Origin: a virus
Lineage: Duplodnaviria; Heunggongvirae; Uroviricota; Caudoviricetes
Reading direction: 5' to 3' (one strand)
Virus record (IMG/VR): IMGVR_UViG_2877251553_000008
DNA: 52,923 nt
How positions within the stretch are numbered: the stretch's first letter is position 1; every line of letters starts with the position of its first letter. The notes under the pieces were generated by a model. That model saw only the letters and a program-made list of their open reading frames with translations. It was not told the DNA's origin and searched no databases. This document shows positions 14,019 through 52,923 of this stretch, one piece after another. Made by a program: the position numbers and the translations under genes.

Positions 14019-14023
14019 ATGTT

Positions 14024-15343: not shown

Positions 15344-15353
15344 AAACCGGGAT

Positions 15354-31784: not shown

Positions 31785-32060
31785 GTGGCTTCCATTTCCA
31801 TCAGATGTCCTTCCTGCTCCGCTACTGAAGGCGTGGTGCGTAACGGCAAAAGCACTGCCGGACATCAGCGCTATCTCTGCTCTCATTGCCGTAAAACATG
31901 GCAACTACAGTTCACTTACACCGCCTCTCAGCCCGGTACGCACCAGAAAATCATTGATATGGCCATGAATGGCGTCGGATGTCGCGCCAGTGCACGCATT
32001 ATGGGCGTTGGCCTCAACACGGTTTTACGTCACTTAAAAAACTCAGGCCGCAGTCGGTAA
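31785..32060 (+). CDS. insA: IS1 InsA
   Basis: 91-aa [43 protein letters not shown]... Confidence 0.95.
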
Positions 32061-35465: not shown

Positions 35466-35658
35466 AAATCCTCCCGGCCTGGATAATATTGTGAGTAAAA
35501 TGAGGAGCGGGCTGAAGTCCGGAAGTTACAGGACAATGGCAGAAGATAGACAACAGCCCGCAATATGAAAAAGGCCGCGCTATTGCGCAGAGTGATTACT
35601 GTCGGATATTATTCACCAGCTGAAATATTACTTCACGTTTTGTTGTTTATTCCTTGCC

Positions 35659-35687
35659 GCCCGCGTCTCCCAGCGCGGGCTTTTTTT
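35659..35687 (+). terminator. intrinsic terminator (plus strand)
   Basis: GCCCGCG-tctcccag-CGCGGGC followed by TTTTTTT. Confidence 0.6.
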
Positions 35688-35689
35688 GT

Positions 35690-35717
35690 CCATAAGAAAG
35701 CCCCTCCGGAGAGGGGC
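35690..35717 (-). terminator. intrinsic terminator (minus strand), downstream of the tRNA cluster
   Basis: Minus-strand hairpin GCCCCTC-tccg-GAGGGGC followed by TTTCTTAT. Confidence 0.5.
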
Positions 35718-35965
35718 TGGAGAGTGGCGCTATGTGCCATTGCATGGTGCCGGGTGCCTCCCGGTGAGTTCAGTATCAGCACCTGAACCCGCACAGAAAG
35801 GATAAGGGTCGGTGACAAAACACCAGTTGCTGATTGCCCTCCGCACAGGGGATTCACCATGCCAGTTTCTTTTAACAAACTCCCCGCAAACCAGACAACA
35901 GTCAACCGCCTGAATTGTGAGACATTTAAAAAAAGCCCGCAAAAGCGAGCCAGGGAAAATAAGTG

Positions 35966-36042
35966 TGGCGCGTTCTACTGTATTCGAACCAGTGACCGAT
36001 TGCTTAGAAGGCAATTGCTCTGTCCGGCTGAGCTAACAACGC
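35966..36042 (-). tRNA. argN: tRNA-Arg (anticodon UCU)
   Basis: Hand-folded cloverleaf: acceptor GCGTTGT, D-arm GCTC..GAGC, anticodon arm ATTGC-CTTCTAA-GCAAT, T-loop TTCGAAT, encoded CCA; one T-stem mismatch. Confidence 0.6.
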
Positions 36043-36058
36043 AGGATACAGATAATGA

Positions 36059-36132
36059 ACCGCCTTCGGGGACCCGAACTCCGCGCAACCAGCTTCGAAG
36101 GCTGGCGCTCTTTCCTGATGAGCTAATGGCGG
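36059..36132 (-). tRNA. tRNA-Arg-like (anticodon UCG by hand fold), possibly degenerate
   Basis: Acceptor CCGCCAT/AAGGCGG, D-arm GCTC..GAGC, anticodon arm CCAGC-CTTCGAA-GCTGG, T-loop TTCGGGT (G at position 58 is unusual), no encoded CCA. Confidence 0.4.
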
Positions 36133-36139
36133 TATGTGA

Positions 36140-36215
36140 TGGTGGCCCTTGCTGGATTTGAACCAGCGACCTGGCGATTATGAGTCGCTCGCTCTCACCA
36201 CTGAGCTAAAGGGCC
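36140..36215 (-). tRNA. ileZ: tRNA with CAU anticodon (Ile2 ileZ-type or Met)
   Basis: Perfect 7-bp acceptor stem GGCCCTT/AAGGGCC, D-arm, anticodon loop CTCATAA, T-arm GCTGG-TTCAAAT-CCAGC, encoded CCA. Confidence 0.75.
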
Positions 36216-36264
36216 GGGAGCAGAATAATAATGGTGCGTAATTAATTCTGCAATCTCATCCGTT

Positions 36265-37314
36265 TCAAACGATTAAATCCTGAACTTCCCTGACTGTCTG
36301 CTCAAAACGTCCGGTCTCCAGTTCAACGCCAATCGCACGACGCCCGAGCGCCAGTGCCGCTTTTACCGTTGAACCTGAGCCCATAAAAAAATCTGCAACC
36401 TGGTCTCCCGGACGACTGCTCGCGTTGATTATCTGCTGCAACATTTCTGCCGTTTTTTCGCACGGATGTTTCCCTGGATAGTACTGCACCGGTTTATACG
36501 TCCACACATCGGTGTACGGCACCTGCACCGTCACACCGAAATACCTCCGCAAATTTTTATATTCACTCTGCAGCTCCACATACTGCCGGCTCAGCTCACT
36601 GTATGTGCTGACCAGTTGGTAATGGGACTTTTCCAGTTCTCCCCGCTGATGTTTCTCTTCTGCCACCCGGGCAAACAGCGACTGTAATTTCAGATAATCG
36701 CTTTCGTTCGGTAGCTGCCACTGACTGGCACTGAACCAGTGCGACACCATGTTTTTCTTTCCTGTGGCATCTGCAATCTGTTTTGCCGTTATCCCCAGGG
36801 CAGCTCGCGCATCACGAAAGTAAGCAATCAGCGGGGCCATCACATGCTGTTTCAGTACCCTGCCCTTCGCCTCATAGCCATCATCTTTCGGGCGGTACGG
36901 CCCCTGATAATGTTCCGCGAACAGAATGCGCTCTGTGGCGGGGAAATACGCCCGCAGGCTTTCCTTGTTGCACCCGTTCCAGCGTCCGGACGGCTTTGCC
37001 CAGATAATATGGTTCAGCACACTGAAGCGTTCACGCATCATGATTTCGATATCAGATGCCAGGCGATGACCACAGAACAGGTAAAGACTTCCGGCAGGTT
37101 TCAGCACCCGCCAGAACTGCGCCAGACACTGGTCCAGCCACTTCAGGTAATCATCGTCGCCCTTCCACTGGTTATCCCAGCCCTCAGGCTTCACTTTAAA
37201 GTACGGCGGGTCCGTGACTATCAGGTCAACAGAATTTTCGGGTAACGACCGGATAAATTCCAGGCAGTCGGCGTTGATTAACTCACAACTGGATATTTTT
37301 ACAGTATTAGCCAT
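36265..37314 (-). CDS. DNA N6-adenine methyltransferase (DPPY motif)
   Basis: 349-aa ORF with DLIVTDPPYF catalytic motif and C-terminal SAM-binding FFMGSGSTVKAA. Confidence 0.85.
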   Translation of the reverse strand: MANTVKISSCELINADCLEFIRSLPENSVDLIVTDPPYFKVKPEGWDNQWKGDDDYLKWLDQCLAQFWRVLKPAGSLYLFCGHRLASDIEIMMRERFSVLNHIIWAKPSGRWNGCNKESLRAYFPATERILFAEHYQGPYRPKDDGYEAKGRVLKQHVMAPLIAYFRDARAALGITAKQIADATGKKNMVSHWFSASQWQLPNESDYLKLQSLFARVAEEKHQRGELEKSHYQLVSTYSELSRQYVELQSEYKNLRRYFGVTVQVPYTDVWTYKPVQYYPGKHPCEKTAEMLQQIINASSRPGDQVADFFMGSGSTVKAALALGRRAIGVELETGRFEQTVREVQDLIV

Positions 37315-37662: not shown

Positions 37663-38195
37663 GTCTTTTTCCCTTTTCCGGTTAACGTGACACACCAATA
37701 ACTCTTGTCGAAAAAGCCAGCAAGCTGAAAGACAGGTATTCACCGCCACCAGCGCGTTTACTGTACTGACGCGATTTCAGTCATAAAAAACCCGCCAGGC
37801 GGCAGGTTTAAGCTGTATGACGGAGTGACCAATCTTAACAGATTAAGATGGTTTTTGTTATAACACAAATCATTTCCTCGGTATCTTTATATCCCTTATG
37901 TTTCAATCGCCATAGATACCATCAATGAAAGTCGCTTAAAAAACTCTGTAGCAGCTTTGTCTAACGTTGAATAAGTTCTTAGCTCTCCACGCCCGGGACC
38001 AGTCACAACCCACGGACGTCTTTTAGGTGTTCTGGCTCCCTCCGAAATCACAACACCTGATAGACTGACATCAATTGTTATCTCCGTTCTTGTTTCATCC
38101 TCATTAGACTGGCCCCCTGAATCTCCAGACAACCAGTATCACTTAAATAAGTGATAGTCTTAATACTAGTTTTTAGACTAGTCATTGGAGTACAG

Positions 38196-38561
38196 ATGAT
38201 TGATGTCTTAGGGCCGGAGAAACGCAGACGGCGTACCACACAGGAAAAGATCGCAATTGTTCAGCAGAGCTTTGAACCGGGGATGACGGTCTCCCTCGTT
38301 GCCCGGCAACATGGTGTAGCAGCCAGCCAGTTATTTCTCTGGCGTAAGCAATACCAGGAAGGAAGTCTTACTGCTGTGGCCGCCGGAGAACAGGTTGTTC
38401 CTGCCTCTGAACTTGCTGCCGCCATGAAGCAGATTAAAGAACTCCAGCGCCTGCTCGGCAAGAAAACGATGGAAAATGAACTCCTCAAAGAAGCCGTTGA
38501 ATATGGACGGGCAAAAAAGTGGATAGCGCACGCGCCCTTATTGCCCGGGGATGGGGAGTAA
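38196..38561 (+). CDS. insC: IS2 InsC (orfA)
   Basis: [56 protein letters not shown]... Confidence 0.95.
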
Positions 38562-39424
38562 GCTTAGTCAGCCGTTGTCTCCGGGTGTCGCGTGCGCAGT
38601 TGCACGTCATTCTCAGACGAACCGATGACTGGATGGATGGCCGCCGCAGTCGTCACACTGATGATACGGATGTGCTTCTCCGTATACACCATGTTATCGG
38701 AGAGCTGCCCACGTATGGTTATCGTCGGGTATGGGCGCTGCTTCGCAGACAGGCAGAACTTGATGGTATGCCTGCGATCAATGCCAAACGTGTTTACCGG
38801 ATCATGCGCCAGAATGCGCTGTTGCTTGAGCGAAAACCTGCTGTACCACCATCGAAACGGGCACATACAGGCAGAGTGGCCGTGAAAGAAAGCAATCAGC
38901 GATGGTGCTCTGACGGGTTCGAGTTCTGCTGTGATAACGGAGAGAGACTGCGTGTCACGTTCGCGCTGGACTGCTGTGATCGTGAGGCACTGCACTGGGC
39001 GGTGACTACCGGCGGCTTCAACAGTGAAACAGTACAGGACGTCATGCTGGGAGCGGTGGAACGCCGCTTCGGCAACGATCTTCCGTCGTCTCCAGTGGAG
39101 TGGCTGACGGATAATGGTTCATGCTACCGGGCTAATGAAACACGCCAGTTCGCCCGGATGTTGGGACTTGAACCGAAGAACACGGCGGTGCGGAGTCCGG
39201 AGAGTAACGGAATAGCAGAGAGCTTCGTGAAAACGATAAAGCGTGACTACATCAGTATCATGCCCAAACCAGACGGGTTAACGGCAGCAAAGAACCTTGC
39301 AGAGGCGTTCGAGCATTATAACGAATGGCATCCGCATAGTGCGCTGGGTTATCGCTCGCCACGGGAATATCTGCGGCAGCGGGCTTGTAATGGGTTAAGT
39401 GATAACAGATGTCTGGAAATATAG
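38519..39424 (+). CDS. insD: IS2 InsD (orfB transposase)
   Basis: 301-aa [33 protein letters not shown]...[23 protein letters not shown]... Confidence 0.95.
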
Positions 39425-39447
39425 GGGCAAATCCAGTAACTGTTCAT

Positions 39448-40897: not shown

Positions 40898-41155
40898 TCA
40901 CGCAGTAAACTCCTTCACCAGCGTTTCAAACTGGCTTACCTGTCCTTCCAGTTCCGCCACGCAATCCACCAGCTCATCCACCGCCTTTTGTGTGCGGTGT
41001 TTTGCCTGCAGCAGATCACGAAGCGCCGGAGTAAGCTGCTTGCGGAGCGTATCTTTTTTCACGCTCGTTTTTTCCATCTGTTCAGCACAACGAAGCATCT
41101 CCTGCGCCTGCCGACGAAGTTGTTCCGGTGAAACAGTGATTGTTCTGTTGTTCAA
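40898..41155 (-). CDS. hypothetical protein (85 aa)
   Basis: ORF between helicase and the DUF968 gene; predicted helical/coiled-coil; start overlaps the helicase stop. Confidence 0.4.
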   Translation of the reverse strand: MNNRTITVSPEQLRRQAQEMLRCAEQMEKTSVKKDTLRKQLTPALRDLLQAKHRTQKAVDELVDCVAELEGQVSQFETLVKEFTA

Positions 41156-42551
41156 AATAAACGCTCCGTTTTACTGCCCGACATGCGGTTATTGCTGTAT
41201 CTGCGCGGATTGCCCGGCGTCATGGGTGTGGAAAGAACCCGGGCACTCTCCTGGTCCACAGGCAGAAAATGTCCGTTATGAAAACGCCGGTAAATGGTCC
41301 CGAGTGTGCCATTACGCTGTTTCGTGATGTTGATTTCTGCTATGCCTCTGGCCTGTGTATCCGGGTTATACACCTCATCCCTGTAAAGCATCAGAATGAT
41401 GTCGGCATCAGCCTCTATTTCCCCGGAGTTTTTCAGGTCTGAGTTCATGGGACGTTTATTGGGTCTGGATTCCACGCCTCGGGAGAGCTGGCTCAGAGCA
41501 ATCAGCGGGAAACCGCCGGATTTTGCCAGGCTTTTAAGTCCCTTTGAGATTTCCCCCACAGCAAGGTCGTGACGCCCCGTGCTGCGGGTTTTAATCAGAC
41601 CGAGGTAATCGACCACCACCAGCGCCGTTTCCGGATGCTTCATCCGGTGGTACCTCGTGGTTGCACATATCTCATCAATTGTTAGATTTGCCTGGTCCAC
41701 CATCCAGATATTACGCCCCGTCATTCGTCCCACGCCCTGCGAGAAACGAGCCCAGTCTTCATCTTCAAAACGGGCAACAGACTTAAGACGGGATACCGGC
41801 ATTCCACCGGCAGTAGACACCATACGTTCACCAATCTGGATGTTCGCCATCTCCATGGTGAACAGAAGCACGCCATGCCCCTGCTCAGTCACCTTGTCGA
41901 TGATGTCCAGCGCCAGTTCGGTTTTCCCCATCGAAGGACGAGCCGCAATGAATACCAGGTCGCCTGGCTCCATCCCCCTGTTTTTGCGTCCAGTTCATTA
42001 ATACCAGTCATCAGTGTTCTGGATTTCTCCAGTCCCTGATTCCGGCATTCAACACGGCCCACCACTTCCGGAAGGACATCATCAATGTGAACCGGCTGAA
42101 TGACGCCCTTTCCGGTCGACAGTGAGGCCATCATGTTCTGCGCATCCTTCAGGGCATCCTCGGCTGCTTCACAGGTATACGCATCACGTAAATTCTGTAA
42201 TGCTTCAGTCAGTGTTTTTTCTGCATCACGCAGTGCGGCATTGCGCCGCAACGCTGCGACATAGTGCTCCAGTGAAGACTTCACCCAGGTTTTGCGTCCG
42301 GTGTCGGTAATCACCGGGGCAAGTTCCGGCATCTCATTGCACAGCAGTACGGGGTCAATGACGCCGGATATGCGAGCCTGTCTGCAAATCCCCGCGTAAA
42401 TATCCCGGTACTGACGCACAAAAAATACATCCGCCGGAAGTGTGGCCAGAATATCCATCACTTCCGGATCGGCCCCACGCAGAAAAAACGCACCGATGAC
42501 AGCGCCTTCCAGGTCATCGTTACGCCATGCCGGGGTGTTCTGGCTGGTCAT
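41152..42551 (-). pseudogene. replicative DNA helicase (DnaB family), frameshifted near 41975
   Basis: 220-aa N-terminal piece and 273-aa piece with Walker A (IAARPSMGKTELAL) and RecA-like DnaB C-terminal motifs. Confidence 0.8.
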
Positions 42552-43435
42552 GCGGCAACACCTCCGATACGAGAAAGGTAGCTGGGCCAGTTAAACGACA
42601 ACCAGTTGCGCCCGCCATCGGTGATCCTGTCGGCAATCCGGGGACTGATGAACGCCCACAATTCTTCCGGTGAAAGGTTGCTGATCAGGATAGTTGGCAA
42701 AATACCCTCATACCGGGCATTGATAATTTCCTGCAAAATGGCCATTTCAGCCGCACTGCCAAACTGAACGCCGACTTCGTCGACAATCAGCAAATCCAGT
42801 GACGCATAATGCTCAATGACGTCATCCGCTGTTTTTTCACTGTCATTCCGCCAGCAGTTTTTCACAGCCCGGGTAAGGCGCATCACGTCGGTGATCTCCA
42901 CACTGGCCAGATAGTTACGGATGATGTGTTTTGCCATTGATACCGCCAGATGATTTTTCCCGGTACCGCAACTGCCGGTCATAACAAGACTGGTACCGTT
43001 CTCCAGCATATCTGGCCAGTTCTCCGCATAGCGGCGACAGGCCGCAAGATTTCTGGCTGCGTCAGGATTAACCTCCAGATAATTATCAAACTCGCAGTCC
43101 CGAAAACGCAGAGCAATTCCGGCGTTATCAGTCAGTTCTTCCGCCTTAAGGGACGACAGTTCCATGGTCAAATCACTGGCCTCAGCGATCAAGCAGTCAG
43201 GGCAGCATGAAATTTTTTCTCTGTCCTCGCCATTACGATCGATCCACACCAGTATATGCGTACGATATTTACCGTGTTTTTCGCAATATCCGCGACCTTC
43301 ACGCATCAGGCAGGAACGATAAGGCCATGGCTTTTCGCCCTTCTGAGCAAATGCAATCTCTGCCCGTAACTCATCCATTCGCGCCTGTAGTCTTGTTTGT
43401 TTCTCACGTTGGTCAATCGTCATCATCGCTGTCAC
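42548..43435 (-). CDS. DnaC/IstB-like replication ATPase (helicase loader)
   Basis: 295-aa ORF with Walker A (MTGSCGTGKNHLAVSMA) and Walker B (LLIVDEVG). Confidence 0.8.
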   Translation of the reverse strand: MTAMMTIDQREKQTRLQARMDELRAEIAFAQKGEKPWPYRSCLMREGRGYCEKHGKYRTHILVWIDRNGEDREKISCCPDCLIAEASDLTMELSSLKAEELTDNAGIALRFRDCEFDNYLEVNPDAARNLAACRRYAENWPDMLENGTSLVMTGSCGTGKNHLAVSMAKHIIRNYLASVEITDVMRLTRAVKNCWRNDSEKTADDVIEHYASLDLLIVDEVGVQFGSAAEMAILQEIINARYEGILPTILISNLSPEELWAFISPRIADRITDGGRNWLSFNWPSYLSRIGGVAA

Positions 43436-43436
43436 C

Positions 43437-44261
43437 TCAGAATGTCAATTTGTTACTGGATTTACCGAATTTGTCAGACATGGCTCCCAGGCCAGCCAGG
43501 ACATCGACCTGTCGCTGTCGCCCACCTCCGTGAGCGGCTGGCTGTTGCCAGTAATCTTCGAAGTGACGATCGGGTCCAAAGAACGTCGCAGCCTGCTTCA
43601 CGAACTGTGTGCCGGTATTTCCTGTAGCACGTACCCAGGCGGCATACCGCTTCACGCCATCAAGCATGGTCTCCGGTTTTATTCCCTCCCTGATACGGGC
43701 TTTCCAGGCTTTGAAGGCTGCTGACTTGGAATTGCCACCAGCACGTTTGGGATATTCCTGCCAGGCCTGTTCAAATTCCGGTGAATATTCCTGTCTGGCA
43801 GAACGCGCTGGTGCAGACGCGTCAGCGGATGCGCCAATAGTTGATTCATTGACTGGTTCTTTGACTGGTTCAAAAGAGTGACTGGTTCTGGGTGAATCTC
43901 CTGCACTACCCCCTGGTGCAACTCCTACACCACCTGGTGAATTTGCTGCACTAGGTAGTGAATTATTTGCACTACCACCTGGTGAATCTTTTGCACCATC
44001 AAGACGAAGAAGATAAATATTGCTCGAGTTCCCTTTTTCACCTTTCCGGGAAACTTTTTTTACCAGTCCAGATTCACAAAGAGCCGTAATATAATTCATC
44101 ACAGAACGTTTGCTAATCTCGCACTGATCAGCAATATGCTGATAGCTGGGCCAGCACTCGCCCTGATCGCTGGCATTATCAGCCAGCTTAATCAGAACCA
44201 GTTTTCGCAACGGATTTCCCACACGAATTTTCATCGCTTTCACCATCAGCTCCATGCTCAT
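43437..44261 (-). CDS. replication initiation protein (O-like, N-terminal HTH)
   Basis: 274-aa ORF; N-terminal winged-HTH region (KLADNASDQGECWPSYQHIADQCEISKRSVMNYITALCESGLV); origin-type iterons lie inside the gene; start may be slightly downstream. Confidence 0.7.
   Translation of the reverse strand: MSMELMVKAMKIRVGNPLRKLVLIKLADNASDQGECWPSYQHIADQCEISKRSVMNYITALCESGLVKKVSRKGEKGNSSNIYLLRLDGAKDSPGGSANNSLPSAANSPGGVGVAPGGSAGDSPRTSHSFEPVKEPVNESTIGASADASAPARSARQEYSPEFEQAWQEYPKRAGGNSKSAAFKAWKARIREGIKPETMLDGVKRYAAWVRATGNTGTQFVKQAATFFGPDRHFEDYWQQPAAHGGGRQRQVDVLAGLGAMSDKFGKSSNKLTF
43878..43990. repeat. five ~22-bp iterons (candidate phage origin) inside the O-like gene
   Basis: CCTGGTGAATCTCCTGCACTACC / CCTGGTGCAACTCCTACACCACC / CCTGGTGAATTTGCTGCACTAGG / TAGTGAATTATTTGCACTACCACC / CCTGGTGAATCTTTTGCACCATC, followed by an AT-rich stretch. 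Confidence 0.7.
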
Positions 44262-44481
44262 AACACACCTCCCAGGCGTTTAAACATTTTTCCAGACAGA
44301 AATACCGCCAGAGGGTAACTGATGGTGTAGCTACGCCCTGTAGTTCGCACACGACTTTCTGGCTTTCAGCGTTGACTAGGCAAACCCGCAGAACGTGACC
44401 GTTGCTGGTGGCGAACCACTGCCCCACACGGGGGCAACGGTTGTATCGGTGATACAGGGAATTAACGATGTGGCGGATCAT
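44188..44481 (-). CDS. hypothetical protein (97 aa), overlaps the O-like start
   Basis: ORF MIRHIVNSLYHRYNRCPRVGQWFATSNGHVLRVCL...; no homologue recalled; the 74-nt overlap with the O-like gene makes boundaries uncertain. Confidence 0.3.
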   Translation of the reverse strand: MIRHIVNSLYHRYNRCPRVGQWFATSNGHVLRVCLVNAESQKVVCELQGVATPSVTLWRYFCLEKCLNAWEVCYEHGADGESDENSCGKSVAKTGSD

Positions 44482-44672
44482 GGACGCACCTCCGCCGTAG
44501 TTACGTATTTAACCGGGCTACCTTTCATTGAGATGGTTTCACACATCTCTGCCGCTTTCAGTTCCGCTGTTTTTCTGGATTTATAGCGACGGTGCCAGAC
44601 AGATACATCCGTGCGAACTGATACATCGTTTCTGTATTCCGTAGTGGAGATGATGATTTCGTAACTAATCAT
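44478..44672 (-). CDS. hypothetical protein (64 aa)
   Basis: Small ORF with ATGA coupling to the upstream Rha-like gene; no homologue recalled. Confidence 0.3.
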   Translation of the reverse strand: MISYEIIISTTEYRNDVSVRTDVSVWHRRYKSRKTAELKAAEMCETISMKGSPVKYVTTAEVRP

Positions 44673-45520
44673 GGGCGAACCTCCTTGTCAGAACCATTCA
44701 GCCTGGAATCAACAAGTGCAGCGCCAAAAACAGCATCACCAACACGGTCGTACAGTTTGCTAGCCAGCGGAGATTCAATGGCCTTAAGCATTGGATAAAG
44801 CTGGCTTGTCCAGATTTGATGGATTTCACGCAAATGCAGGTATACGCCTCTGGCGTTTCGTGCGACAGCTGACATATCAACCGCGTCAGCACCAGATAAA
44901 TTCTTCTCCATCTGGTTAAAGGCGTTGATGTATGCCTCTTTGAACCGGGCTGCACGTTTGCCAGTAAAGCCCATAGCAAGGAACGCGAAGCCATCACGGG
45001 TGATTTGATAGCAAGGTAGTTTGCGGCCTGTGCAATCGGTGTAATCACTCACCGAAAAATTGCGGGCAGTGAATGATGCGGAGCATTCAAGCGTGCGGAT
45101 CTTTTTCAGTACATCGTCATGACGCTTGGAGAAGAAGTTGGCAACAGCCAGGGATGAAGTAACAGCCTGACCATCAACGATGGCAATTTCAGGTTGAGTG
45201 AGGGTTGGGATCGTAGCCATGATGGCAGCCTCCGTTGACTGTGGAAAACTTCCACCACCGGAGCTGCGAAACTCACTGGTGGCAGACTGAACAGGGTTCG
45301 CAGTACCGGCGTCAACGGAGACCGGCGAGCCTTTCGGCTCCCCTGCCCAGCCCACCATAATTCTGGCGTGCGTGAGCGCGGACGATAAAAAAGACGCTGG
45401 CGCGTCATATATCGCCGTTGACAATTCCGGGCTGCGACCCCCGGCACCCACTTTATAAGGTGCAGAGACAGTGTAACGTCCCGAAATTGCAGAATCAATA
45501 TTTGGTCTTGAAATGATCAT
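44669..45520 (-). CDS. Rha-family phage regulatory protein (functional start probably ATG at 45220)
   Basis: Rha domain IVDGQAVTSSLAVANFFSKRHDDVLKKIRTLEC... begins ~100 codons into the ORF; internal ATG at 45220 has a GGAGG RBS. Confidence 0.6.
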   Translation of the reverse strand: MIISRPNIDSAISGRYTVSAPYKVGAGGRSPELSTAIYDAPASFLSSALTHARIMVGWAGEPKGSPVSVDAGTANPVQSATSEFRSSGGGSFPQSTEAAIMATIPTLTQPEIAIVDGQAVTSSLAVANFFSKRHDDVLKKIRTLECSASFTARNFSVSDYTDCTGRKLPCYQITRDGFAFLAMGFTGKRAARFKEAYINAFNQMEKNLSGADAVDMSAVARNARGVYLHLREIHQIWTSQLYPMLKAIESPLASKLYDRVGDAVFGAALVDSRLNGSDKEVRP

Positions 45521-45628
45521 ATAGCTGCTGATATCTTTAGAACTGTTCTTGGATGTTTCGGAGCCGTTTTATGCGAAACAGCTCCCCGTTATTGATGTTG
45601 AGTGAGCCGGGTTACTCCCGGCTTTTTT

Positions 45629-46336
45629 TCACCGCTGCCAACCAATAACCTGAAATAACCCCATTTTCGGGTGATACCAGCGAGTCCCTCGCGGTTCTGC
45701 TTCCTCCATAACCCGATAAAAAGCAGCCATAAACGGTTCCACAGCAACAATTGCGCGACGTGACAACAATCCGTCCGGCGTCATGAACTCATGGGTGTCT
45801 GTAGGAATCTGATAGGCGTTCACCAGATTGCGGCATTTATCATCTGACAAACCGGTTTTTGCTTTCAGTTGGCGATATCCGGCATAGCCCTCACGAATAG
45901 TGCCCTTTTTAATTTGCTCGACTGTTTCAGCAACGTGGCTGACTTTTTCTTCCACCTGAGTGATCCGTTTCTGCTGACGAACTGCTTCAAGAGCCATCGC
46001 GGCAACCATTTCGATTTCGCTCATTGGCTTACGGATCTGTTCTTCCAGTTCGCGCCAGCGATCTACCAGGCGAGCAGTGAATTCAGGACAGAGCTGTGCG
46101 ACGACAATGATGCTGTCGCGCTTACCTTGTTCTCCTTCAAACAGGTAATGCTCATATTGAACTTTAAAACCTAAGTTATTGATTCTTTCGGAAACCTCAA
46201 TTTGAGGAGACCGGACAACGCCACCTTTGGCTAATGTTTCAATAGTGCGTTTCACATTGTCATGACGTTTACCCACCAGCTCTGCGATCTCAACGCTGGT
46301 CATGGATGCTTTGCCGTTAAAAATTGCGGTGTTCAT
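45629..46336 (-). CDS. Rha-family / antirepressor-like protein
   Basis: 235-aa ORF with N-terminal SVEIAELVGKRHDNVKRTIETL Rha signature; start coupled (ATGA) to the cro-like gene. Confidence 0.65.
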   Translation of the reverse strand: MNTAIFNGKASMTSVEIAELVGKRHDNVKRTIETLAKGGVVRSPQIEVSERINNLGFKVQYEHYLFEGEQGKRDSIIVVAQLCPEFTARLVDRWRELEEQIRKPMSEIEMVAAMALEAVRQQKRITQVEEKVSHVAETVEQIKKGTIREGYAGYRQLKAKTGLSDDKCRNLVNAYQIPTDTHEFMTPDGLLSRRAIVAVEPFMAAFYRVMEEAEPRGTRWYHPKMGLFQVIGWQR

Positions 46337-46560
46337 TGTTGGTCTCCTGTGGGCTTGTCATCTTCTGTATTCGCTAGACTTGGGTGTGTATATGGAATGC
46401 TCGGATCCAGATGACAAAGAATGGCAACATCCTCCGGAACACCTCGCGTTTTCCACTTTCCAACACCTTGACTGCCACGAGGCCTTCCTTTCTTTGGGAA
46501 CCTGCGACCAATAGCGGCATTGGTTTTAAATTGAATTTTTAATATTTCATAAAGGGTCAT
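46333..46560 (-). CDS. cro: Cro-like small regulator (first gene of the rightward early operon)
   Basis: 75-aa ORF transcribed divergently from cI across a 111-bp operator region; assigned by position, sequence similarity to known Cro weak. Confidence 0.4.
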   Translation of the reverse strand: MTLYEILKIQFKTNAAIGRRFPKKGRPRGSQGVGKWKTRGVPEDVAILCHLDPSIPYTHPSLANTEDDKPTGDQQ

Positions 46561-46671
46561 TCTTTAGTCTCACACCAGATACTTTGTTATCCAACGATGT
46601 TAACCGCAAGAATCCAAAGTATCAAGATATTCTGTTACTTTAGTATCAACAGCCATGAGAGGAGAAGAAAA
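46561..46671. promoter_or_regulatory. cI/cro divergent promoter-operator region (OR-like)
   Basis: Repeated half-site core GTATCA/TGATAC (GATACT 46579-46584; AGTATCAA 46618-46625 and 46642-46649); RBS GAGAGGAG before the cI ATG. Confidence 0.5.
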
Positions 46672-47327
46672 ATGAAGTCTTTAGGTGAACGTCTCATCAA
46701 CGCACGGCAAAAAGCTGGGTTAACACAAGATGCGTTGGCTAAAAAAGCTGGGATCACCAGAGTTGCAATCAGTAAAGCCGAGCAAGGCCTTACAAAAAGT
46801 TTCAACGGTGACACCCTTTTTAAAGTTGCAGCTGCACTGCGGTGTTCACCGCAGTGGCTTCAGAACGGAGATGAAAAAGATAAGCATTGGGAAAATAATG
46901 TTAAGAGCTGCCCACAGAGAGACACAGCACACTCTTACCCTGTAATTAACTGGGTTCAGGCAGGATTATTCGCAACTTCTGGTGATGACTACAACATGTA
47001 TGATCAGGATAATTGGAGGCATTCTGTAAAATACGCTGGTGAGAGGGGTTCTGGCTGGAAGTGCACGGAGACTCAATGACTTCGCCCGTAGGAATAACAT
47101 TTCCTGAAGGAATGTCGATCCTTGTCAACCCAGATAAAGAAGTTTTTTCAGGGTGTTACGTCATCGCCAGAAAAAAATCCACCAATGAAGCAACATTCAA
47201 AAAATATATTTCTGACATGGGAAAGGCGTTTCTAAAGCCCCTTAATCCACAATATCCAATCATAGAAATGGACAATGATTGCGAAATAGTAGGTGTTGTG
47301 GTTGATGCCAGGTGGGATATTTTCTGA
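46672..47327 (+). pseudogene. cI: CI-type repressor (HTH plus S24 LexA-like peptidase), frameshifted at G-run 47045-47048
   Basis: N-terminal MKSLGERLINARQKAGLTQDALAKKAGITRVAISKAEQG (HTH) ...KYAGE; C-terminal domain with catalytic G-D-S-M (VHGDSMTSP) and KKY; adding one G to GGGG restores ...AGERGFWLEVHGDSM. Confidence 0.8.
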
Positions 47328-47339
47328 CCAGACACAAAG

Positions 47340-47430
47340 CACAAAAAGAAAACAAAGTATCAAAAATCACTTGTCACACCTTGATACCTTAGTTACCATA
47401 AAACAAAGTTCGTAACTGAGGTATCATCTC
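47340..47430 (+). promoter_or_regulatory. second operator-bearing promoter region (OL/pL-like) downstream of cI
   Basis: Same half-site core as the cI-cro region: AGTATCAA 47356-47363, TTGATACC 47381-47388 (inverted pair), GGTATCA 47420-47426. Confidence 0.45.
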
Positions 47431-47675
47431 ATGTTCAATAAAGCTACAACTCTTGACTGTCTCGAAGAACTGAAAAACCTCGGCAGCCTCATTACACTAA
47501 TAGCAAAAGCAACACCTGATGCTACGCTCTCTAGCGATATAGAGTCATGCGCAGGACTGGCATGGGATATGACAAATAGCATATCCAGAAAGCTATCGTC
47601 AGCAATGCTTTTACAGAACAAAAATTCTGCAATCAACAACCGTCTTCGCACCCAACGCGAAGCCTGCGGCTTAAC
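47431..47675 (+). pseudogene. first early-left gene (unknown function), 3' end cut by IS911
   Basis: ORF MFNKATTLDCLEELKNLGSLITLIAKATPDATLSSDIESCAGLAWDMTNS... continues into the IS911 end; not Arg-rich, so not an obvious N homologue. Confidence 0.4.
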
Positions 47676-47683
47676 TGAAGTGG

Positions 47684-48852
<1,169 letters not shown>

Positions 48853-48960
48853 TGGAGCACCTGTGTTGTTCTGAGGTGAGCATATCACCTCTGTTCAGGT
48901 GGCCAAATTCAGTGTGCCACTTCAGTGTTATGTTCAACCAGTTACTTAAACAGGTAAGAA

Positions 48961-49278
48961 ATGGCAACTGACTCACAACTAACCATAGAAACGGCCCTGA
49001 ATGTCGGCCTGGCGCTCCTTGGTTATTTTTACATCGTGTTCTGCAGCAGACGGTGGCTGTCGCTGTTGTTCCTGAAAAAATGGAATAAACGCCGTAAGCA
49101 GGATGAACGCCAGAAGGCAATGAATGCGTTTTCCGAAGCCTTCGGAATTGACGGCATGGAACCAGGGGATCCAGCTCGCGCAATCAGCAGAGGGGGTGTA
49201 GTAATCCTTGTATATCGGAGTGAAGAGAAAAATGACGATCACAAAACAACGAGTAGAAAAAATCATATATCGCCATGA
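48961..49278 (+). CDS. hypothetical small membrane protein (N-terminal TM helix, basic tail)
   Basis: 105-aa ORF; TM segment LNVGLALLGYFYIVF followed by SRRW..KKWNKRRKQDERQK; 3' end overlaps the next gene. Confidence 0.4.
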   Translation: MATDSQLTIETALNVGLALLGYFYIVFCSRRWLSLLFLKKWNKRRKQDERQKAMNAFSEAFGIDGMEPGDPARAISRGGVVILVYRSEEKNDDHKTTSRKNHISP

Positions 49279-49546
49279 AATGGGACTGAACAGCGATGTC
49301 ACTGCCGAAGAGGTTTATGACCTGGCTGTACTGGCGCTGAATTTATCAAATATCGCAAACCTGAAGCGATACGAGCTTGATATGGATGGTTGCGACTCGT
49401 GCGGTCAGGATTGTGGCGCAGATATGACTGAAGATCCTGATGGTGATTATGTCCTGTTTGATGACGTGGTTAAGTTGTTTGAATTTGATACAACCACTCA
49501 AAAGTTAGAAATCCCGGCAAAGGAGGCTGCCAGTGAGCAAGATTGA
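49232..49546 (+). CDS. hypothetical protein (104 aa)
   Basis: ATG at 49232 with GGAG RBS; MTITKQRVEKIIYRHEMGLNSDVTAEEVYDLAV...; acidic Cys-containing C-terminus. Confidence 0.4.
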   Translation: MTITKQRVEKIIYRHEMGLNSDVTAEEVYDLAVLALNLSNIANLKRYELDMDGCDSCGQDCGADMTEDPDGDYVLFDDVVKLFEFDTTTQKLEIPAKEAASEQD

Positions 49547-50078
49547 CTATCAGGCACTGCGTGAGGCGGCAGAGAAGGCTACGAAAGGTAAGTGGGCTGT
49601 TGAATTCGACGATGAGATTTACTCCACTGACGGCATAAACCATGAGCAAATAGCTATGGTGTTCAGTGAAAACGAATCTCGTGATGCTGAATTCATCGCC
49701 GCAGCCAATCCGGCTACCGTCTTGGCGCTTCTGGATGAACGGGAAAGAAACCAGCAATACATCAAACGCCGCGACCAGGAGAACGAGGATATTGCGCTTA
49801 CGGTTGGGAAGCTGCGCGTTGAGCTTGAAGCAGCAAAATCAAAACTCAACGAGCAGCGCGAGTATTACGAGGGAGTTATCTCTGATGGGTGCAAGCGTAT
49901 TGCTGAACTGGAAGCGCGGGAAGTTCAATTACCGACTCGCTACGACCTTCGATATGGACACCCGATAAATGCAGATGAGCGACAAGTCATGATACCTAAA
50001 GAAAATGGCAGTTGGCTTTACCTGATTGACCTAGAACACGCATTACGCGTCGCTGACATTCGTATCAAAGGAGAGTGA
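49533..50078 (+). CDS. Ead/Ea22-like protein
   Basis: 181-aa ORF (GTG start, AAGGAGG RBS) with ..ATKGKWAVEFDDEIYS...AAANPATVLALLDERE.. typical of the Ead/Ea22 family. Confidence 0.6.
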   Translation: MSKIDYQALREAAEKATKGKWAVEFDDEIYSTDGINHEQIAMVFSENESRDAEFIAAANPATVLALLDERERNQQYIKRRDQENEDIALTVGKLRVELEAAKSKLNEQREYYEGVISDGCKRIAELEAREVQLPTRYDLRYGHPINADERQVMIPKENGSWLYLIDLEHALRVADIRIKGE

Positions 50079-50079
50079 T

Positions 50080-50343
50080 ATGGCCACTTTAACAAAAAAA
50101 GAACGGGCATGGTTGAATGAATTACAGGACGTTCTTGATCGCTGTCCATTACCAAAAAAAATTGGTTTTTACACCATTGGCGATAAAACCATTTACCTGT
50201 ATGACCTACGCCGCATGGATGAAATCATGGAGGCTCTTGATAATCGTTCGTCGATGGATTGGTGTGTTGCTGTCCATGATATGAATGCAGGGTTTGATGA
50301 AAAGATTTTGTTCCCCTCATCAGTTGAAAGCACTGCGGGTTAA
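50080..50343 (+). CDS. hypothetical protein (87 aa)
   Basis: Compact ORF immediately after the previous stop; no homologue recalled. Confidence 0.4.
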   Translation: MATLTKKERAWLNELQDVLDRCPLPKKIGFYTIGDKTIYLYDLRRMDEIMEALDNRSSMDWCVAVHDMNAGFDEKILFPSSVESTAG

Positions 50344-50353
50344 GGAGTAACAC

Positions 50354-50617
50354 ATGACCACTATAACCAAAGAGCGACTGCTGACAATCAAGCAGTGGCG
50401 CGAAACATACGGACCGGGTAGCAACGTTGTGCTTCCAGCAGAAGAAGCGGAAGAGCTGGCACGGATTGCGCTGGCATCACTGGCAGCAGAGCCGGTGGCA
50501 AAGATTATAGCTCATTACCCATTAGGAGTTGACGTAGGCAAACAAAAATTCGTACAGGCCATTAGAGAGCTTCCTGACTTTGGCGGATATCTATTTGCCG
50601 CCCTCCAGCGCCGATAG
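50354..50617 (+). CDS. hypothetical protein (87 aa)
   Basis: ORF with RBS GGAG; no homologue recalled. Confidence 0.4.
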   Translation: MTTITKERLLTIKQWRETYGPGSNVVLPAEEAEELARIALASLAAEPVAKIIAHYPLGVDVGKQKFVQAIRELPDFGGYLFAALQRR

Positions 50618-50865
50618 TGCCGGAAGAAATGTATAGGCAGGATGCGCCAGTTGAAGGCAGCAGCAAAGCGGCTGCATACGCTACAGGCTGGAACGATTGC
50701 CGCGAAGCCATGCTTCAGTCCGGAAACTTTCGGGAAAATAAAGATTCGTCAACCAATAATTTTCGGAAAATCCCGGAAGCGTCAACCAGCTCTCCGGTAA
50801 CTCCGGATGGTTGGATAAGCTGTAGTGAGCGAATGCCGGACGACAGGCAGGAGGTGAATCAATGA
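50617..50865 (+). CDS. hypothetical protein, DUF551-like C-terminus (82 aa)
   Basis: ...TPDGWISCSERMPDD resembles the DUF551 WIS..RLP motif; stop overlaps the next ATG. Confidence 0.35.
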   Translation: MPEEMYRQDAPVEGSSKAAAYATGWNDCREAMLQSGNFRENKDSSTNNFRKIPEASTSSPVTPDGWISCSERMPDDRQEVNQ

Positions 50866-50945
50866 GCTGGCCTGATGCAATCGTAACTCTGGGGGTGGTA
50901 TTCGCAGCAGCGTTTGTTGTGTTCTCGATTTGTCGATGGGGATAA
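50862..50945 (+). CDS. candidate 27-aa hydrophobic peptide
   Basis: AGGAGG-N7-ATG; MSWPDAIVTLGVVFAAAFVVFSICRWG; ATGA-coupled to the upstream gene. Confidence 0.35.
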   Translation: MSWPDAIVTLGVVFAAAFVVFSICRWG

Positions 50946-50949
50946 CCAC

Positions 50950-51192
50950 ATGTTCGCTTTGATTCAACGCGGTCAGATATACACGGACAGAGCCGGATAC
51001 CCCGTGGTGATTACTCGCATCACTGAGCACTCAGTGTTCTTTCGACGGATGGACGGACGATCCGGGCGGGTACGCATTGGTGAGTTAAACTGCCTGTTCG
51101 AACATATTGACCACCAGGAGTACCGCAAAATTCTCGCGGACACTGAGCAGGAAAAGCACCTGAAAAAATTACGAGCCATAAAAAGGAAGTAA
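50950..51192 (+). CDS. hypothetical protein (80 aa, DUF4222-like)
   Basis: MFALIQRGQIYTDRAGYPVVITRITEHSVFFRRMDGRSGRVRIGELNCLFEHIDHQEYRKILADTEQEKHLKKLRAIKRK. Confidence 0.45.
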   Translation: MFALIQRGQIYTDRAGYPVVITRITEHSVFFRRMDGRSGRVRIGELNCLFEHIDHQEYRKILADTEQEKHLKKLRAIKRK

Positions 51193-51195
51193 AGA

Positions 51196-51330
51196 ATGAA
51201 TAAAGCATTTGAACGATGGGTCCACCAGCGTTACGGCAATCGCTATGACCTGACGCGAGATGTTGACGGCTTCTACTGTCGTGAAGTTGTGAAGCGAATG
51301 TTTGACGTGTGGTGCCACTGCCGTGGATGA
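51196..51330 (+). CDS. candidate 44-aa Cys-rich small protein
   Basis: AAGGAAG RBS; MNKAFERWVHQRYGNRYDLTRDVDGFYCREVVKRMFDVWCHCRG. Confidence 0.3.
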   Translation: MNKAFERWVHQRYGNRYDLTRDVDGFYCREVVKRMFDVWCHCRG

Positions 51331-51348
51331 AAATTTTATGAGGTTGGC

Positions 51349-51603
51349 ATGCAGACAATCATCTATCAGATAACCCCCAGCAAATGGTGTACGGAGAGAG
51401 TCCTCATTGCATCAACAGGGCTAAAGCCTGGCACCATTGAGCGGGCAAGAAGAAAGTCATGGATGCAGGGAAAAGAATACCGCCATTACGCTGTAGAAGG
51501 TGATCCGGGGCACTACAGTGAATGCCTGTACAACATCGAAGAAATTATGCGATGGATCGAAAACCAGAAACAACCAGGTGCCAAAAATGCAAGTTCCGGT
51601 TAA
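51349..51603 (+). CDS. xis: putative excisionase (Xis-like, DUF1233-type)
   Basis: 84-aa ORF immediately upstream of int; assigned mostly by position and size. Confidence 0.5.
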   Translation: MQTIIYQITPSKWCTERVLIASTGLKPGTIERARRKSWMQGKEYRHYAVEGDPGHYSECLYNIEEIMRWIENQKQPGAKNASSG

Positions 51604-51636
51604 CCTGTTAATGCTCCTGGACGTCTGGGAGGTTTA

Positions 51637-52923
51637 ATGAGTAACGCATCATACCCGACAGGCGTTGAAAAACATGGAGGATCACTCCGTATATGGTTTC
51701 ACTATAATGGCAAACGTGTCAGAGAAAACCTCGGTGTTCCTGACACAGCCAAAAACCGGAAGATCGCTGGTGAACTTCGCACTTCCGTTTGTTTTGCAAT
51801 CAGAATGGGGAGTTTCGACTACGCCGCGCAGTTCCCTAATTCCCCTAACCTGAAACACTTTGGTCTGGGAAAAAGAGAGATAACCGTTAAGGCACTTTCG
51901 GAAAAATGGTTGGACCTTAAGAAAATTGAGATTTGTGCGAATGCACTTAACCGTTACCAGTCAGTAATTAAAAACATGTTACCAATGTTAGGTGAAAAAA
52001 AACTGGTTTCATCCATAACAAAAGAGGATTTACTTTTCGTAAGGAGAGATTTGTTGACCGGTTACCAAAAGCTTTCTAATGGAAAGACTTCTTCCATAAA
52101 AGGGCGCTCAGTGGTCACGGTAAACTACTATATGACAACCATAGCTGGAATGTTTCAATTTGCAACAGATAATGGTTATACCTCAGGAAACCCATTTAAC
52201 GGTCTGGCTCCCTTAAAAAAGTCCAAGGTAAAACCAGATCCTCTCACCCGTGACGAATTTATTCGTTTTATTGAGGCTTGCCGTCATCAACAAACAAAAA
52301 ACCTGTGGATTCTCGCTGTATACACGGGTATTCGTCACGGGGAGTTGGTATCGCTGGCATGGGAAGATATAGACCTTAAAGCAAGGACTATAACCATCCG
52401 TAGAAATTATACAAAACTTGGCGAATTCACTCCACCAAAAACCGATGCAGGCACCGGAAGGACAATTCATCTGGTTCAACCAGCTATTGATGCTCTTAAA
52501 AGCCAGGCGGAAATGACCATGCTTGGAAAGCAACATTCTGTAGAGGTGAAGCAGAGGGAATATGGGAGAACTGCTGTGCATAAATGCACTTTTGTTTTTA
52601 GTCCTCAGGTAACAAAACAGCAGCAGTTGTCCGGACCTCACTACAAGGTTGACTCCATCAGGGAGTCATGGACAAGTATCTTAAAACGCGCAGGTCTGAG
52701 ACACAGAAAATCGTACCAATCCAGGCATACTTATGCATGCTGGTCACTTGCCGCAGGAGCTAATCCTAGTTTTATCGCAAGCCAGATGGGCCACACAAAC
52801 GCACAAATGGTATTCAATGTTTACGGAGCATGGATGAAAGACAACAATCACGAACAGATAGAACTCCTTAACAAAAGACTATCTGAAAGTGTCCCATGTA
52901 TGCCCCATAAGAAAGCTGGGTAA
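51637..52923 (+). CDS. int: tyrosine-type site-specific integrase
   Basis: 428-aa ORF; C-terminal catalytic region with ..HGELVSLAWEDID.. and ..SRHTYACWSLAAGANPSFIASQMGHTNAQMVFNVYGAWM (R..H..R..Y signature); AT-rich; stop is the last codon of the window. Confidence 0.9.
   Translation: MSNASYPTGVEKHGGSLRIWFHYNGKRVRENLGVPDTAKNRKIAGELRTSVCFAIRMGSFDYAAQFPNSPNLKHFGLGKREITVKALSEKWLDLKKIEICANALNRYQSVIKNMLPMLGEKKLVSSITKEDLLFVRRDLLTGYQKLSNGKTSSIKGRSVVTVNYYMTTIAGMFQFATDNGYTSGNPFNGLAPLKKSKVKPDPLTRDEFIRFIEACRHQQTKNLWILAVYTGIRHGELVSLAWEDIDLKARTITIRRNYTKLGEFTPPKTDAGTGRTIHLVQPAIDALKSQAEMTMLGKQHSVEVKQREYGRTAVHKCTFVFSPQVTKQQQLSGPHYKVDSIRESWTSILKRAGLRHRKSYQSRHTYACWSLAAGANPSFIASQMGHTNAQMVFNVYGAWMKDNNHEQIELLNKRLSESVPCMPHKKAG

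What the first reader, a model, noticed from the sequence alone, without database searches (positions are those of the whole stretch)
46672..47327. Repressor is split between HTH/linker and the S24 autocleavage domain by a missing G
One G missing from GGGG at 47045-47048 separates the DNA-binding domain and Ala-Gly linker from the catalytic domain (GDSM...KKY). If real, the prophage would make a truncated, non-dimerising repressor and a separate inert C-terminal domain. If an artefact, the repressor is an intact, SOS-inducible CI.
Basis: seen in the sequence. Interest (0 to 1): 0.5.

Follow-up and report, generated by a model that had tools for sequence, protein, structure and literature searches.

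The report
Repressor frameshift is an assembly error
The split phage repressor gene is really in the sequence, but it is almost certainly one of many single-base sequencing errors in G/C runs of this Shigella dysenteriae assembly, so the true gene is an ordinary intact lambda-CI-type repressor.

Summary
Window 46672-47327 is a lambda-CI-type repressor gene broken by one missing G in the run at 47045-47048 (G4 here, G5 in relatives). Restoring the G gives a 218-aa protein identical to one seen on at least 1000 public contigs.

The break is very probably not biological. The window is identical to Shigella dysenteriae assembly CP026825.1. Six sister assemblies carry the same prophage at the same mlrA site, with the same IS911 insertion, and all have the intact 218-aa gene.

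Over 21.3 kb, the window's assembly has 0 substitutions against one sister and 1 against another. It has five one-base deletions, all in G/C runs, one of them in a chromosomal housekeeping gene.

Over 41.8 kb against sister CP026807.1 there are 19 one-base deletions, no insertions and only 6 substitutions. G/C5 runs are shortened in 7 of 25 cases, G/C runs of 6 or more in 3 of 4, and A/T runs in 0 of 1225. This is the pattern of homopolymer undercalling, and it also splits the terminase, capsid, protease, helicase and other genes here.

The real gene is therefore best read as an intact CI repressor of the RecA/SOS-cleavable type. Cleavage site: A97-G98. Nucleophile: S135. General base: K177. 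Low interest; not a real feature.

The parts
46672..47327 (+). Lambda-CI-type prophage repressor gene (HTH_3 + hinge + Peptidase_S24). As assembled it carries a one-base frame break; with the base restored it encodes 218 aa.
   Evidence: the repaired product is identical to WP_000838344.1 and aligns to lambda CI 3BDN over residues 12-215 (E 9e-34).
47045..47048 (+). G4 run that is G5 in all close relatives and in six sister assemblies of the same prophage. This is the site of the presumed homopolymer undercall.
46672..47079 (+). Apparent N-terminal ORF (135 aa): HTH_3 (residues 10-63), hinge with cleavage site A97-G98, then 9 out-of-frame residues.
47076..47327 (+). Apparent C-terminal ORF (83 aa from ATG 47076; the frame is open from 47043 and there is a GTG at 47061): the Peptidase_S24 part. 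ATG 47076 overlaps the N-ORF stop (ATGA) and follows GGAG at 47068-47071. A product starting there would lack the nucleophile S135.
   Evidence: gene callers in public assemblies call this 83-aa product.
46960..46965 (+). Codons for A97-G98, the predicted RecA-stimulated self-cleavage site (VQAG, matching lambda A111-G112).
   Evidence: alignment.
47073..47075 (+). Codon for S135 (GDSM), the predicted nucleophile (matching lambda S149); read in the downstream frame.
   Evidence: alignment.
47199..47201 (+). Codon for K177 (TFKKY), the predicted general base (matching lambda K192).
   Evidence: alignment.
46561..46671 (.). Divergent intergenic region between the repressor gene and the 75-aa gene in the Cro position (46333-46560, minus strand). 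It holds two AGTATCAA motifs and inverted partners, which are candidate operators.
   Evidence: 6 AGTATCAA in the window against 1.06 expected; 3 of them flank the repressor gene. The operator function is inferred.
47676..48925 (-). IS911 copy that truncates the downstream HTH gene to 92 aa (47431-47709). This is a real lesion, shared by all sister assemblies.
   Evidence: 99.6-99.8% identical to IS911 copies, no indels.

Best explanation
The frameshift is a consensus (base-calling or assembly) error: one G of a G5 run was dropped in the S. dysenteriae assembly this window comes from. The real gene is an intact 218-aa lambda-CI-type repressor of a phiP27/Stx-phage-like prophage integrated at mlrA. 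By homology it binds operators through an N-terminal HTH, dimerises through its C-terminal S24 domain, and is inactivated during the SOS response by RecA-stimulated self-cleavage at A97-G98 using S135 and K177. Shown here: the missing base, the identity of the repaired gene, the intact gene in sister genomes, and the error pattern of this assembly. Inferred: that the pattern comes from long-read homopolymer undercalling (the sequencing platform of the record was not available), and the repressor mechanism itself, which rests on homology to lambda CI and was not tested.
For: (1) Window 41637-52923 is identical to CP026825.1, and the 871 nt around the gene match it 100%. (2) Six other assemblies carry the same prophage at the same mlrA site, with the same integrase and the same IS911-truncated 92-aa gene: CP026807.1, AKNG01000044.1, CP026823.1, PSST01000003.1, CP026840.1 and CP026805.1. 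All encode the intact 218-aa repressor. (3) CP026825.1 against AKNG01000044.1 over 21,288 nt shows 0 substitutions and five 1-bp deletions in CP026825.1, all in G/C runs: window 41973 C6>C5 in the helicase, 44335 C4>C3, 47044 G5>G4 in the repressor, 50600 C4>C3, and G5>G4 in a chromosomal OpuAC-domain gene that drops from 305 to 240 aa. The same five appear against CP026807.1, with 1 substitution. (4) Window 18960-39508 against CP026807.1 shows 5 substitutions, 14 one-base deletions in the window's assembly and 0 in the sister. These split the terminase, S49 protease, major capsid protein, SASA esterase, holin and lysis genes, all of which are intact in five or more sister or draft assemblies. 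(5) Per-run rates over 41.8 kb: G/C4 9/149, G/C5 7/25, G/C6 2/3 and G/C7+ 1/1 shortened, none lengthened; A/T runs 0/1225; G/C3 0/620; sign test for 19:0, p = 3.8e-6. A more distant intact E. coli reference gives the same picture (8/19 G/C runs of 5 or more shortened). (6) Other assemblies with accessions in the same range have their own private G/C-run deletions. (7) None of the 186 complete RefSeq E. coli genomes that match this junction has G4. (8) Errors in long-read assemblies are mainly homopolymer indels that fragment genes (PMC12007338).
Against: No reads were examined, so the base itself was not verified. The sister assemblies are different records and possibly different strains, so a strain-private real mutation cannot be formally excluded. 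The exact 135-aa truncated product is also encoded in nine other public assemblies or runs, on several flanking haplotypes. That could mean the G5 run is a real mutational hotspot. In two of them (L006, L011) G4 is the only indel seen against the references used. The IS911 and IS2 copies in the window have no indels, but they hold only two G/C5 and seven G/C4 runs, so about one error was expected. The prophage really is hit by IS elements in all the sisters, so losing the repressor might be tolerated.
Confidence: 0.93

Rival explanations
1. The G5>G4 deletion is a real, strain-private mutation. This S. dysenteriae prophage is already crippled by IS insertions, so loss of CI function is tolerated. 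The cell makes a 135-aa HTH-plus-hinge fragment that dimerises and represses poorly, possibly together with an 83-aa C-terminal fragment lacking the catalytic serine, re-initiated at the ATGA overlap.
For: The prophage carries IS911, IS2, IS1 and an IS66-family element, also present in the sisters, so it may be non-inducible. Homopolymer runs are natural slippage sites. The ORF layout (GGAG at 47068-47071, ATG 47076 overlapping TGA 47077-47079) would allow coupled translation.
Against: The deletion is one of 19 unidirectional G/C-run deletions, with only 6 substitutions, relative to a sister genome, and one of them is in a housekeeping gene. A natural process giving that indel-to-substitution ratio, touching no A/T run and producing no insertion would be very unusual. 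All six sister assemblies have G5. The background chance of a spurious shortening at a G/C5 run in this assembly is about 25% (6/24 excluding this site), whereas G4 was seen 0 times in 186 complete E. coli genomes.
Confidence: 0.05
2. The G run in this repressor family is a genuine recurrent hotspot or phase-variable switch. G4 alleles arise repeatedly in P27-like prophages and produce a split repressor with some function, for example a non-cleavable HTH fragment that locks in or modulates immunity.
For: The exact truncated product occurs on at least 10 contigs from different assemblies, with at least 5 flanking haplotypes and different neighbouring genes. The 83-aa C-terminal product is recorded on 33 contigs. 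In L006 the G deletion is the only difference in 12.4 kb from two complete E. coli genomes.
Against: These loci were found by searching for the truncated product, so recurrence is expected from recurrent error as well. L007 and L008 show the same error pattern at about 1 per kb. L010, L012 and L013 carry further 1-bp deletions in A7, T7 or T6 runs. L006 and L011 have only 4 and 1 aligned G/C runs of 5 or more. A five-base run is short for phase variation. A real cI knockout in the otherwise intact L006 prophage should induce the phage and kill the lysogen. G4 was seen 0 times in 186 complete RefSeq genomes.
Confidence: 0.02
3. The gene is expressed as a full-length repressor despite G4, through programmed -1 ribosomal frameshifting or transcriptional slippage at the G run.
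For: The downstream domain is in the -1 frame, and the rare codon AGG sits immediately before the site.
Against: There is no X XXY YYZ slippery heptamer in the zero frame (GAG AGG GGT TCT). A G4 run is far shorter than the runs known to give transcriptional slippage. Every relative encodes the protein in one frame with G5, so recoding is not conserved.
Confidence: 0.003

Closest known systems
Bacteriophage lambda CI repressor (PDB 3BDN, 1F39, 2HO0)
   Same: Same architecture and alignable over residues 12-215 (E 9e-34): N-terminal HTH, hinge with the VQAG cleavage site (A97-G98 = lambda A111-G112), and a C-terminal S24 domain with GDSM Ser (S135 = S149) and TFKK Lys (K177 = K192).
   Different: The HTH domain is closer in sequence to the 434 Cro, P22 C2 and 434 repressor type (E 1e-8 to 1e-3) than to lambda's. 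The protein is 218 aa against 236. Operator specificity differs: candidate AGTATCAA half-sites, not tested.
Putative CI repressor L11 (NP_543063.1) of Stx2e phage phiP27, and 'phage repressor protein CI' of Stx1a/Stx2a-converting phages
   Same: 98% (phiP27) and 94% (Stx phages) protein identity to the repaired gene, the same 218-aa length and the same neighbourhood: a divergent 75-aa gene, two Rha-family genes upstream and an HTH gene downstream.
   Different: As assembled, the window's copy lacks one G. The S. dysenteriae prophage also has IS911 inserted just downstream and a lambda-like structural module in place of a P27-like one.
Gene-fragmenting homopolymer indel errors in long-read genome assemblies
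   Same: One-base deletions confined to homopolymers, dependent on run length, all in one direction, fragmenting many genes including a housekeeping gene, and absent from sister and draft assemblies. This matches the error class described in PMC12007338.
   Different: Here only G/C runs are affected (A/T 0/1225). The paper's nanopore example had more A/T-run errors. The platform of this record could not be checked.

Membership tests
Lambda-CI / LexA-type self-cleaving repressors (HTH + Peptidase S24) | N-terminal helix-turn-helix DNA-binding domain | tested here: met
   Pfam HTH_3, E 4.9e-15, residues 10-63. PDB hits to 434 Cro, P22 C2 and 434 repressor HTH domains.
Lambda-CI / LexA-type self-cleaving repressors (HTH + Peptidase S24) | C-terminal Peptidase_S24 domain with a Ser/Lys dyad | tested here: met
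   Pfam Peptidase_S24, E 4.1e-13, on the downstream ORF. S135 and K177 align with lambda S149 and K192.
Lambda-CI / LexA-type self-cleaving repressors (HTH + Peptidase S24) | Ala-Gly cleavage site in the hinge, about 35-40 residues upstream of the nucleophile | tested here: met
   VQAG A97-G98 aligns with lambda VQAG A111-G112 and lies 38 residues before S135.
Lambda-CI / LexA-type self-cleaving repressors (HTH + Peptidase S24) | Both domains encoded in one continuous reading frame | tested here: inconclusive
   Not met in the window as assembled (G4). Met in six sister assemblies of the same prophage and in all relatives. The break is attributed to assembly error, but reads were not available.
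Lambda-CI / LexA-type self-cleaving repressors (HTH + Peptidase S24) | RecA-stimulated self-cleavage and repression of lytic promoters | not testable with these tools
   Needs cleavage and immunity assays; inferred from homology only.
Sequencing or assembly artefact (homopolymer undercall) | The difference lies in a homopolymer and is absent from independent assemblies of the same element | tested here: met
   G5>G4. Six sister assemblies have G5, with 0-1 substitutions over 21 kb in the two closest.
Sequencing or assembly artefact (homopolymer undercall) | The same assembly shows many like differences, unidirectional and dependent on run length, out of proportion to substitutions, including in conserved chromosomal genes | tested here: met
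   19 deletions, 0 insertions and 6 substitutions over 41.8 kb. G/C5 7/25, G/C6 or longer 3/4, A/T 0/1225. One deletion is in the chromosomal OpuAC-domain gene.
Sequencing or assembly artefact (homopolymer undercall) | Raw reads or an orthogonal method show the longer run | not testable with these tools
   No read data could be reached. The platform of CP026825.1 was not available, and a paper search for the accession found nothing.
Programmed frameshift or phase-variable gene | Slippery site or long tract, and conservation of the two-frame arrangement in relatives | tested here: not met
   No slippery heptamer, the run is only 4-5 nt, and relatives are single-frame.

The most novel reading that the evidence does not exclude
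The G5 run in the repressor of phiP27-like prophages is a genuine recurrent slippage hotspot. G4 alleles, seen on at least 10 public contigs with several flanking haplotypes, would then be real. They would give a split repressor (an HTH-hinge fragment plus a translationally coupled, serine-less C-terminal domain) that changes immunity or inducibility in E. coli and Shigella lysogens.
Probability: 0.03. Interest if true: 0.4.

Novelty: not a real feature. Interest (0 to 1): 0.05.

Why it matters
The biological importance is small: the gene is an ordinary CI-type repressor, 100% identical once repaired to a protein already seen on more than 1000 contigs. The practical point matters more. Every apparent frameshift in a G/C run of this window should be treated as suspect, including the helicase, terminase, capsid protein, protease, tail protein J, esterase and holin. 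So should any conclusion that this prophage is 'decayed' by point frameshifts. The lesions this prophage shares with its sister genomes are the IS insertions (IS911, IS2, IS1; the IS66-family copy was not compared).

Tried and rejected
(1) I first read the recurrence of the exact 135-aa truncated product on at least 10 contigs, with different flanks, as evidence for a real inherited allele. I dropped this because I had found those loci by searching for the truncated product. L007 and L008 carry the same G/C-run deletion pattern at about 1 per kb, L010, L012 and L013 have extra A/T-run deletions, and L006 and L011 have too few G/C runs of 5 or more to count as 'clean'.

(2) I used the IS911 and IS2 copies as internal error yardsticks. 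They have 0 indels, but they contain only two G/C5 and seven G/C4 runs, so the result says little.

(3) The differences in mlrA (215 vs 233 aa) and bglX-like (755 vs 765 aa) gene lengths between assemblies looked like further frameshifts. The DNA is identical to the sister's, so they are only different start-codon choices by the gene callers.

(4) Programmed -1 frameshifting or transcriptional slippage: rejected, because there is no slippery site and relatives are single-frame.

(5) Paper searches for the accession and for the S. dysenteriae genome project found nothing usable, so the sequencing platform remains unverified.

(6) My first translation attempt used 46673 as the start and failed.

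Full report
OBSERVATION

An ORF starts at ATG 46672 and stops at TGA 47077-47079 (135 aa). The rest of the homologous protein lies in the -1 frame, which is open from 47043 to the stop at 47325-47327. Pfam finds HTH_3 in the first ORF (E 4.9e-15) and Peptidase_S24 in the second (E 4.1e-13).

An alignment with two E. coli prophages, phage phiP27 and two Stx-converting phages places the only indel in the G run. The window has G4 at 47045-47048; the relatives have five bases there (GGGGG, or GGGGA in one). Adding one G gives a 218-aa protein identical to WP_000838344.1 of E. coli ZH063, 98% identical to phiP27 L11 and 94% identical to the Stx-phage CI proteins. That exact 218-aa sequence is recorded on at least 1000 public contigs.

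WHAT THE GENE IS

The repaired protein aligns with lambda CI (PDB 3BDN) over residues 12-215 (E 9e-34).

- VQAG A97-G98 aligns with the lambda cleavage site A111-G112.
- GDSM S135 aligns with S149.
- K177, the first K of TFKKY, aligns with K192.

The self-cleavage site is therefore A97-G98, 29 residues upstream of the frame break. It is not the A122-G123 pair that sits next to the break. The break corresponds to about lambda residue 140/141, at the start of the C-terminal domain.

The neighbourhood is a typical immunity region. There is a divergent 75-aa gene in the Cro position, two Rha-family genes, and an HTH gene downstream. AGTATCAA motifs with inverted partners flank the repressor gene and are candidate operators. 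That function is inferred.

IS THE BREAK REAL?

I first looked for the allele elsewhere. None of the 186 complete RefSeq E. coli genomes that match this junction has G4. The exact 135-aa truncated product, however, is encoded on at least 10 contigs from different assemblies, with several flanking haplotypes. That looked like a real allele, until I examined the quality of those assemblies.

Two of them (L007, L008) carry 7-9 isolated one-base indels in about 7.5 kb, nearly all deletions in G/C runs. Others carry extra deletions in A7, T7 or T6 runs. Because I found these loci by searching for the truncated product, recurrent error explains their recurrence as well as recurrent mutation does.

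THE WINDOW'S OWN ASSEMBLY

The window is identical to S. dysenteriae CP026825.1. The organism name comes from the sources' own names for the exact integrase and for the IS911-truncated 92-aa product.

Against an intact E. coli relative of the structural module (96-97% identity), the window's isolated indels are almost all one-base deletions in G/C runs. With strict flank matching, 8 of 19 G/C runs of length 5 or more are shortened and none is lengthened. A/T runs of length 5-6 are shortened in 0 of 110 cases.

THE DECISIVE COMPARISON

Using the integrase and the small terminase subunit as handles, I fetched the same prophage from sister assemblies. Six of them share the mlrA insertion site, the integrase and the IS911 insertion that truncates the downstream gene to 92 aa: CP026807.1, AKNG01000044.1, CP026823.1, PSST01000003.1, CP026840.1 and CP026805.1. 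All six encode the intact 218-aa repressor.

Over 21,288 nt, CP026825.1 differs from AKNG01000044.1 by 0 substitutions and five one-base deletions, all in G/C runs:

- window 41973, C6>C5, in the helicase
- window 44335, C4>C3
- window 47044, G5>G4, in the repressor
- window 50600, C4>C3
- a G5>G4 in the chromosomal OpuAC-domain gene, which drops from 305 to 240 aa

Against CP026807.1 the same five appear, with 1 substitution.

For window 18960-39508 against CP026807.1 there are 5 substitutions, 14 one-base deletions in the window's assembly and none in the sister. These deletions split the large terminase subunit, S49 protease, major capsid protein, SASA esterase, holin and a lysis gene. All of these are intact in five or more other assemblies.

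Pooled over 41.8 kb:

- G/C4 runs: 9/149 shortened
- G/C5 runs: 7/25 shortened
- G/C6 runs: 2/3 shortened
- G/C runs of 7 or more: 1/1 shortened
- G/C3 runs: 0/620 shortened
- A/T runs of any length: 0/1225 shortened
- No run is lengthened. The sign test for 19:0 gives p = 3.8e-6.

Other assemblies with accessions in the same range each have their own private G/C-run deletions.

INTERPRETATION

This set of differences is 3:1 indels to substitutions. It is strictly unidirectional, confined to G/C runs, rises steeply with run length, hits a housekeeping gene, and varies idiosyncratically among near-identical assemblies. That is the behaviour of homopolymer undercalling in consensus sequence, a known gene-fragmenting error class in long-read assemblies (PMC12007338). 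It is not how natural decay behaves.

Excluding the repressor site itself, a G/C5 run in this assembly has about a 25% chance (6/24) of appearing shortened. The observed frequency of a G4 allele is 0/186 among complete E. coli genomes and 0/6 among the sisters. I put the probability of artefact at about 0.93. The remainder goes mostly to a strain-private real mutation, which the prophage might tolerate because it is interrupted by IS911, IS2, IS1 and an IS66-family element. IS911, IS2 and IS1 are shared with the sisters; the IS66-family copy was not compared.

LIMITS

- No reads were available, and the sequencing platform of the record could not be checked.
- The IS911 and IS2 copies in the window have no indels, but they contain too few G/C runs to be informative.
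- In L006 (an NCTC E. coli), the G deletion is the only difference in 12.4 kb from two complete genomes. That is a lone difference in a prophage that looks intact, where a real repressor knockout should be lethal to the lysogen. I read it as an error too, but this was not shown.
- Window 1-18959 was compared only with a 96-97% identical reference, not with a sister genome.

MECHANISM OF THE REAL GENE (INFERRED FROM HOMOLOGY)

The 218-aa protein would bind operators in the regions flanking it, repress the divergent Cro-side lytic operon, and dimerise through its S24 domain. On DNA damage it would be inactivated by RecA-stimulated self-cleavage at A97-G98.

If the break were real, the products would be two fragments. 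The first is a 135-aa HTH-hinge fragment, similar to the cleaved form of lambda CI, which represses poorly. The second, possibly made by re-initiation at the ATGA overlap behind GGAG 47068-47071, is an 83-aa C-terminal fragment lacking S135.

VERDICT

This is not a real feature, and interest is low.

Noticed in passing
window 18960-52923: sites 19055, 19148, 22299, 22306, 22622, 25021, 27591, 30401, 30933, 33296, 34930, 35840, 35848, 37585, 41973, 44335, 50600: Further one-base deletions in G/C runs relative to near-identical sister S. dysenteriae assemblies. They split the helicase (41152-42551), large terminase subunit (27061-29030), S49 protease, major capsid protein (~22.6 kb), SASA esterase (33571-35198), holin, a lysis gene, a 74-aa gene and a 170-aa gene. 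All look like the same consensus-error class as the repressor frameshift.
   Followed up: yes
window 9396-16000: e.g. 10588 (G5>G4), 12729 (C6>C5), 12805 (C5>C4), 13929 (T8>T7), 15050 (C6>C5): The tail gene J appears as three overlapping ORFs (10430-11767, 11719-12789, 12707-13681), and other tail genes are broken by one-base homopolymer deletions relative to an intact E. coli relative (L021, 96-97% identity). Probably the same artefact, but this part was not compared with a sister S. dysenteriae genome.
   Followed up: partly
window 47676-48925 (IS911), 38104-39435 (IS2), ~31730-32500 (IS1), ~4034-5572 (IS66-family transposase): IS insertions in the prophage. IS911 truncates the HTH gene downstream of the repressor to 92 aa. 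IS2 sits just downstream of the antiterminator Q gene. IS1 lies between a DUF1327 gene and the lysozyme gene. IS911, IS2 and IS1 are also present in the sister assemblies and so are real; the IS66-family copy was not compared. Together they may make the prophage defective for late gene expression.
   Followed up: partly
window 46578-46649 and 47354-47426: The motif AGTATCAA occurs 6 times in the window against 1.06 expected. Three copies flank the repressor gene (46618, 46642, 47356), with inverted partners (46578-86/46615-23; 47354-63/47381-90; 47382-96/47412-26). These are candidate operator half-sites on both sides of the repressor gene, like OR and OL.
   Followed up: partly
window 33571-37314: The late region has the layout of Stx-converting phages (Q, DNA methyltransferase, DUF1737 gene, SASA/NanS-p-like esterase, holin, lysozyme), but the gap where stxAB would sit is only about 800 nt, so no toxin genes appear to be present.
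   Followed up: no
L028:15815 (chromosome flank of CP026825.1, outside the window): A G5>G4 deletion truncates a conserved chromosomal OpuAC-domain (osmoprotectant-binding) gene from 305 to 240 aa in this assembly only. This shows the error class is not confined to the prophage.
   Followed up: yes
L010, L012 (window-equivalent 47177), L013 (47143): Some public contigs that carry the G4 allele also carry a second one-base deletion in an A7 or T6 run inside the same repressor gene. This suggests error-prone long-read data, though real secondary decay is not excluded.
   Followed up: partly
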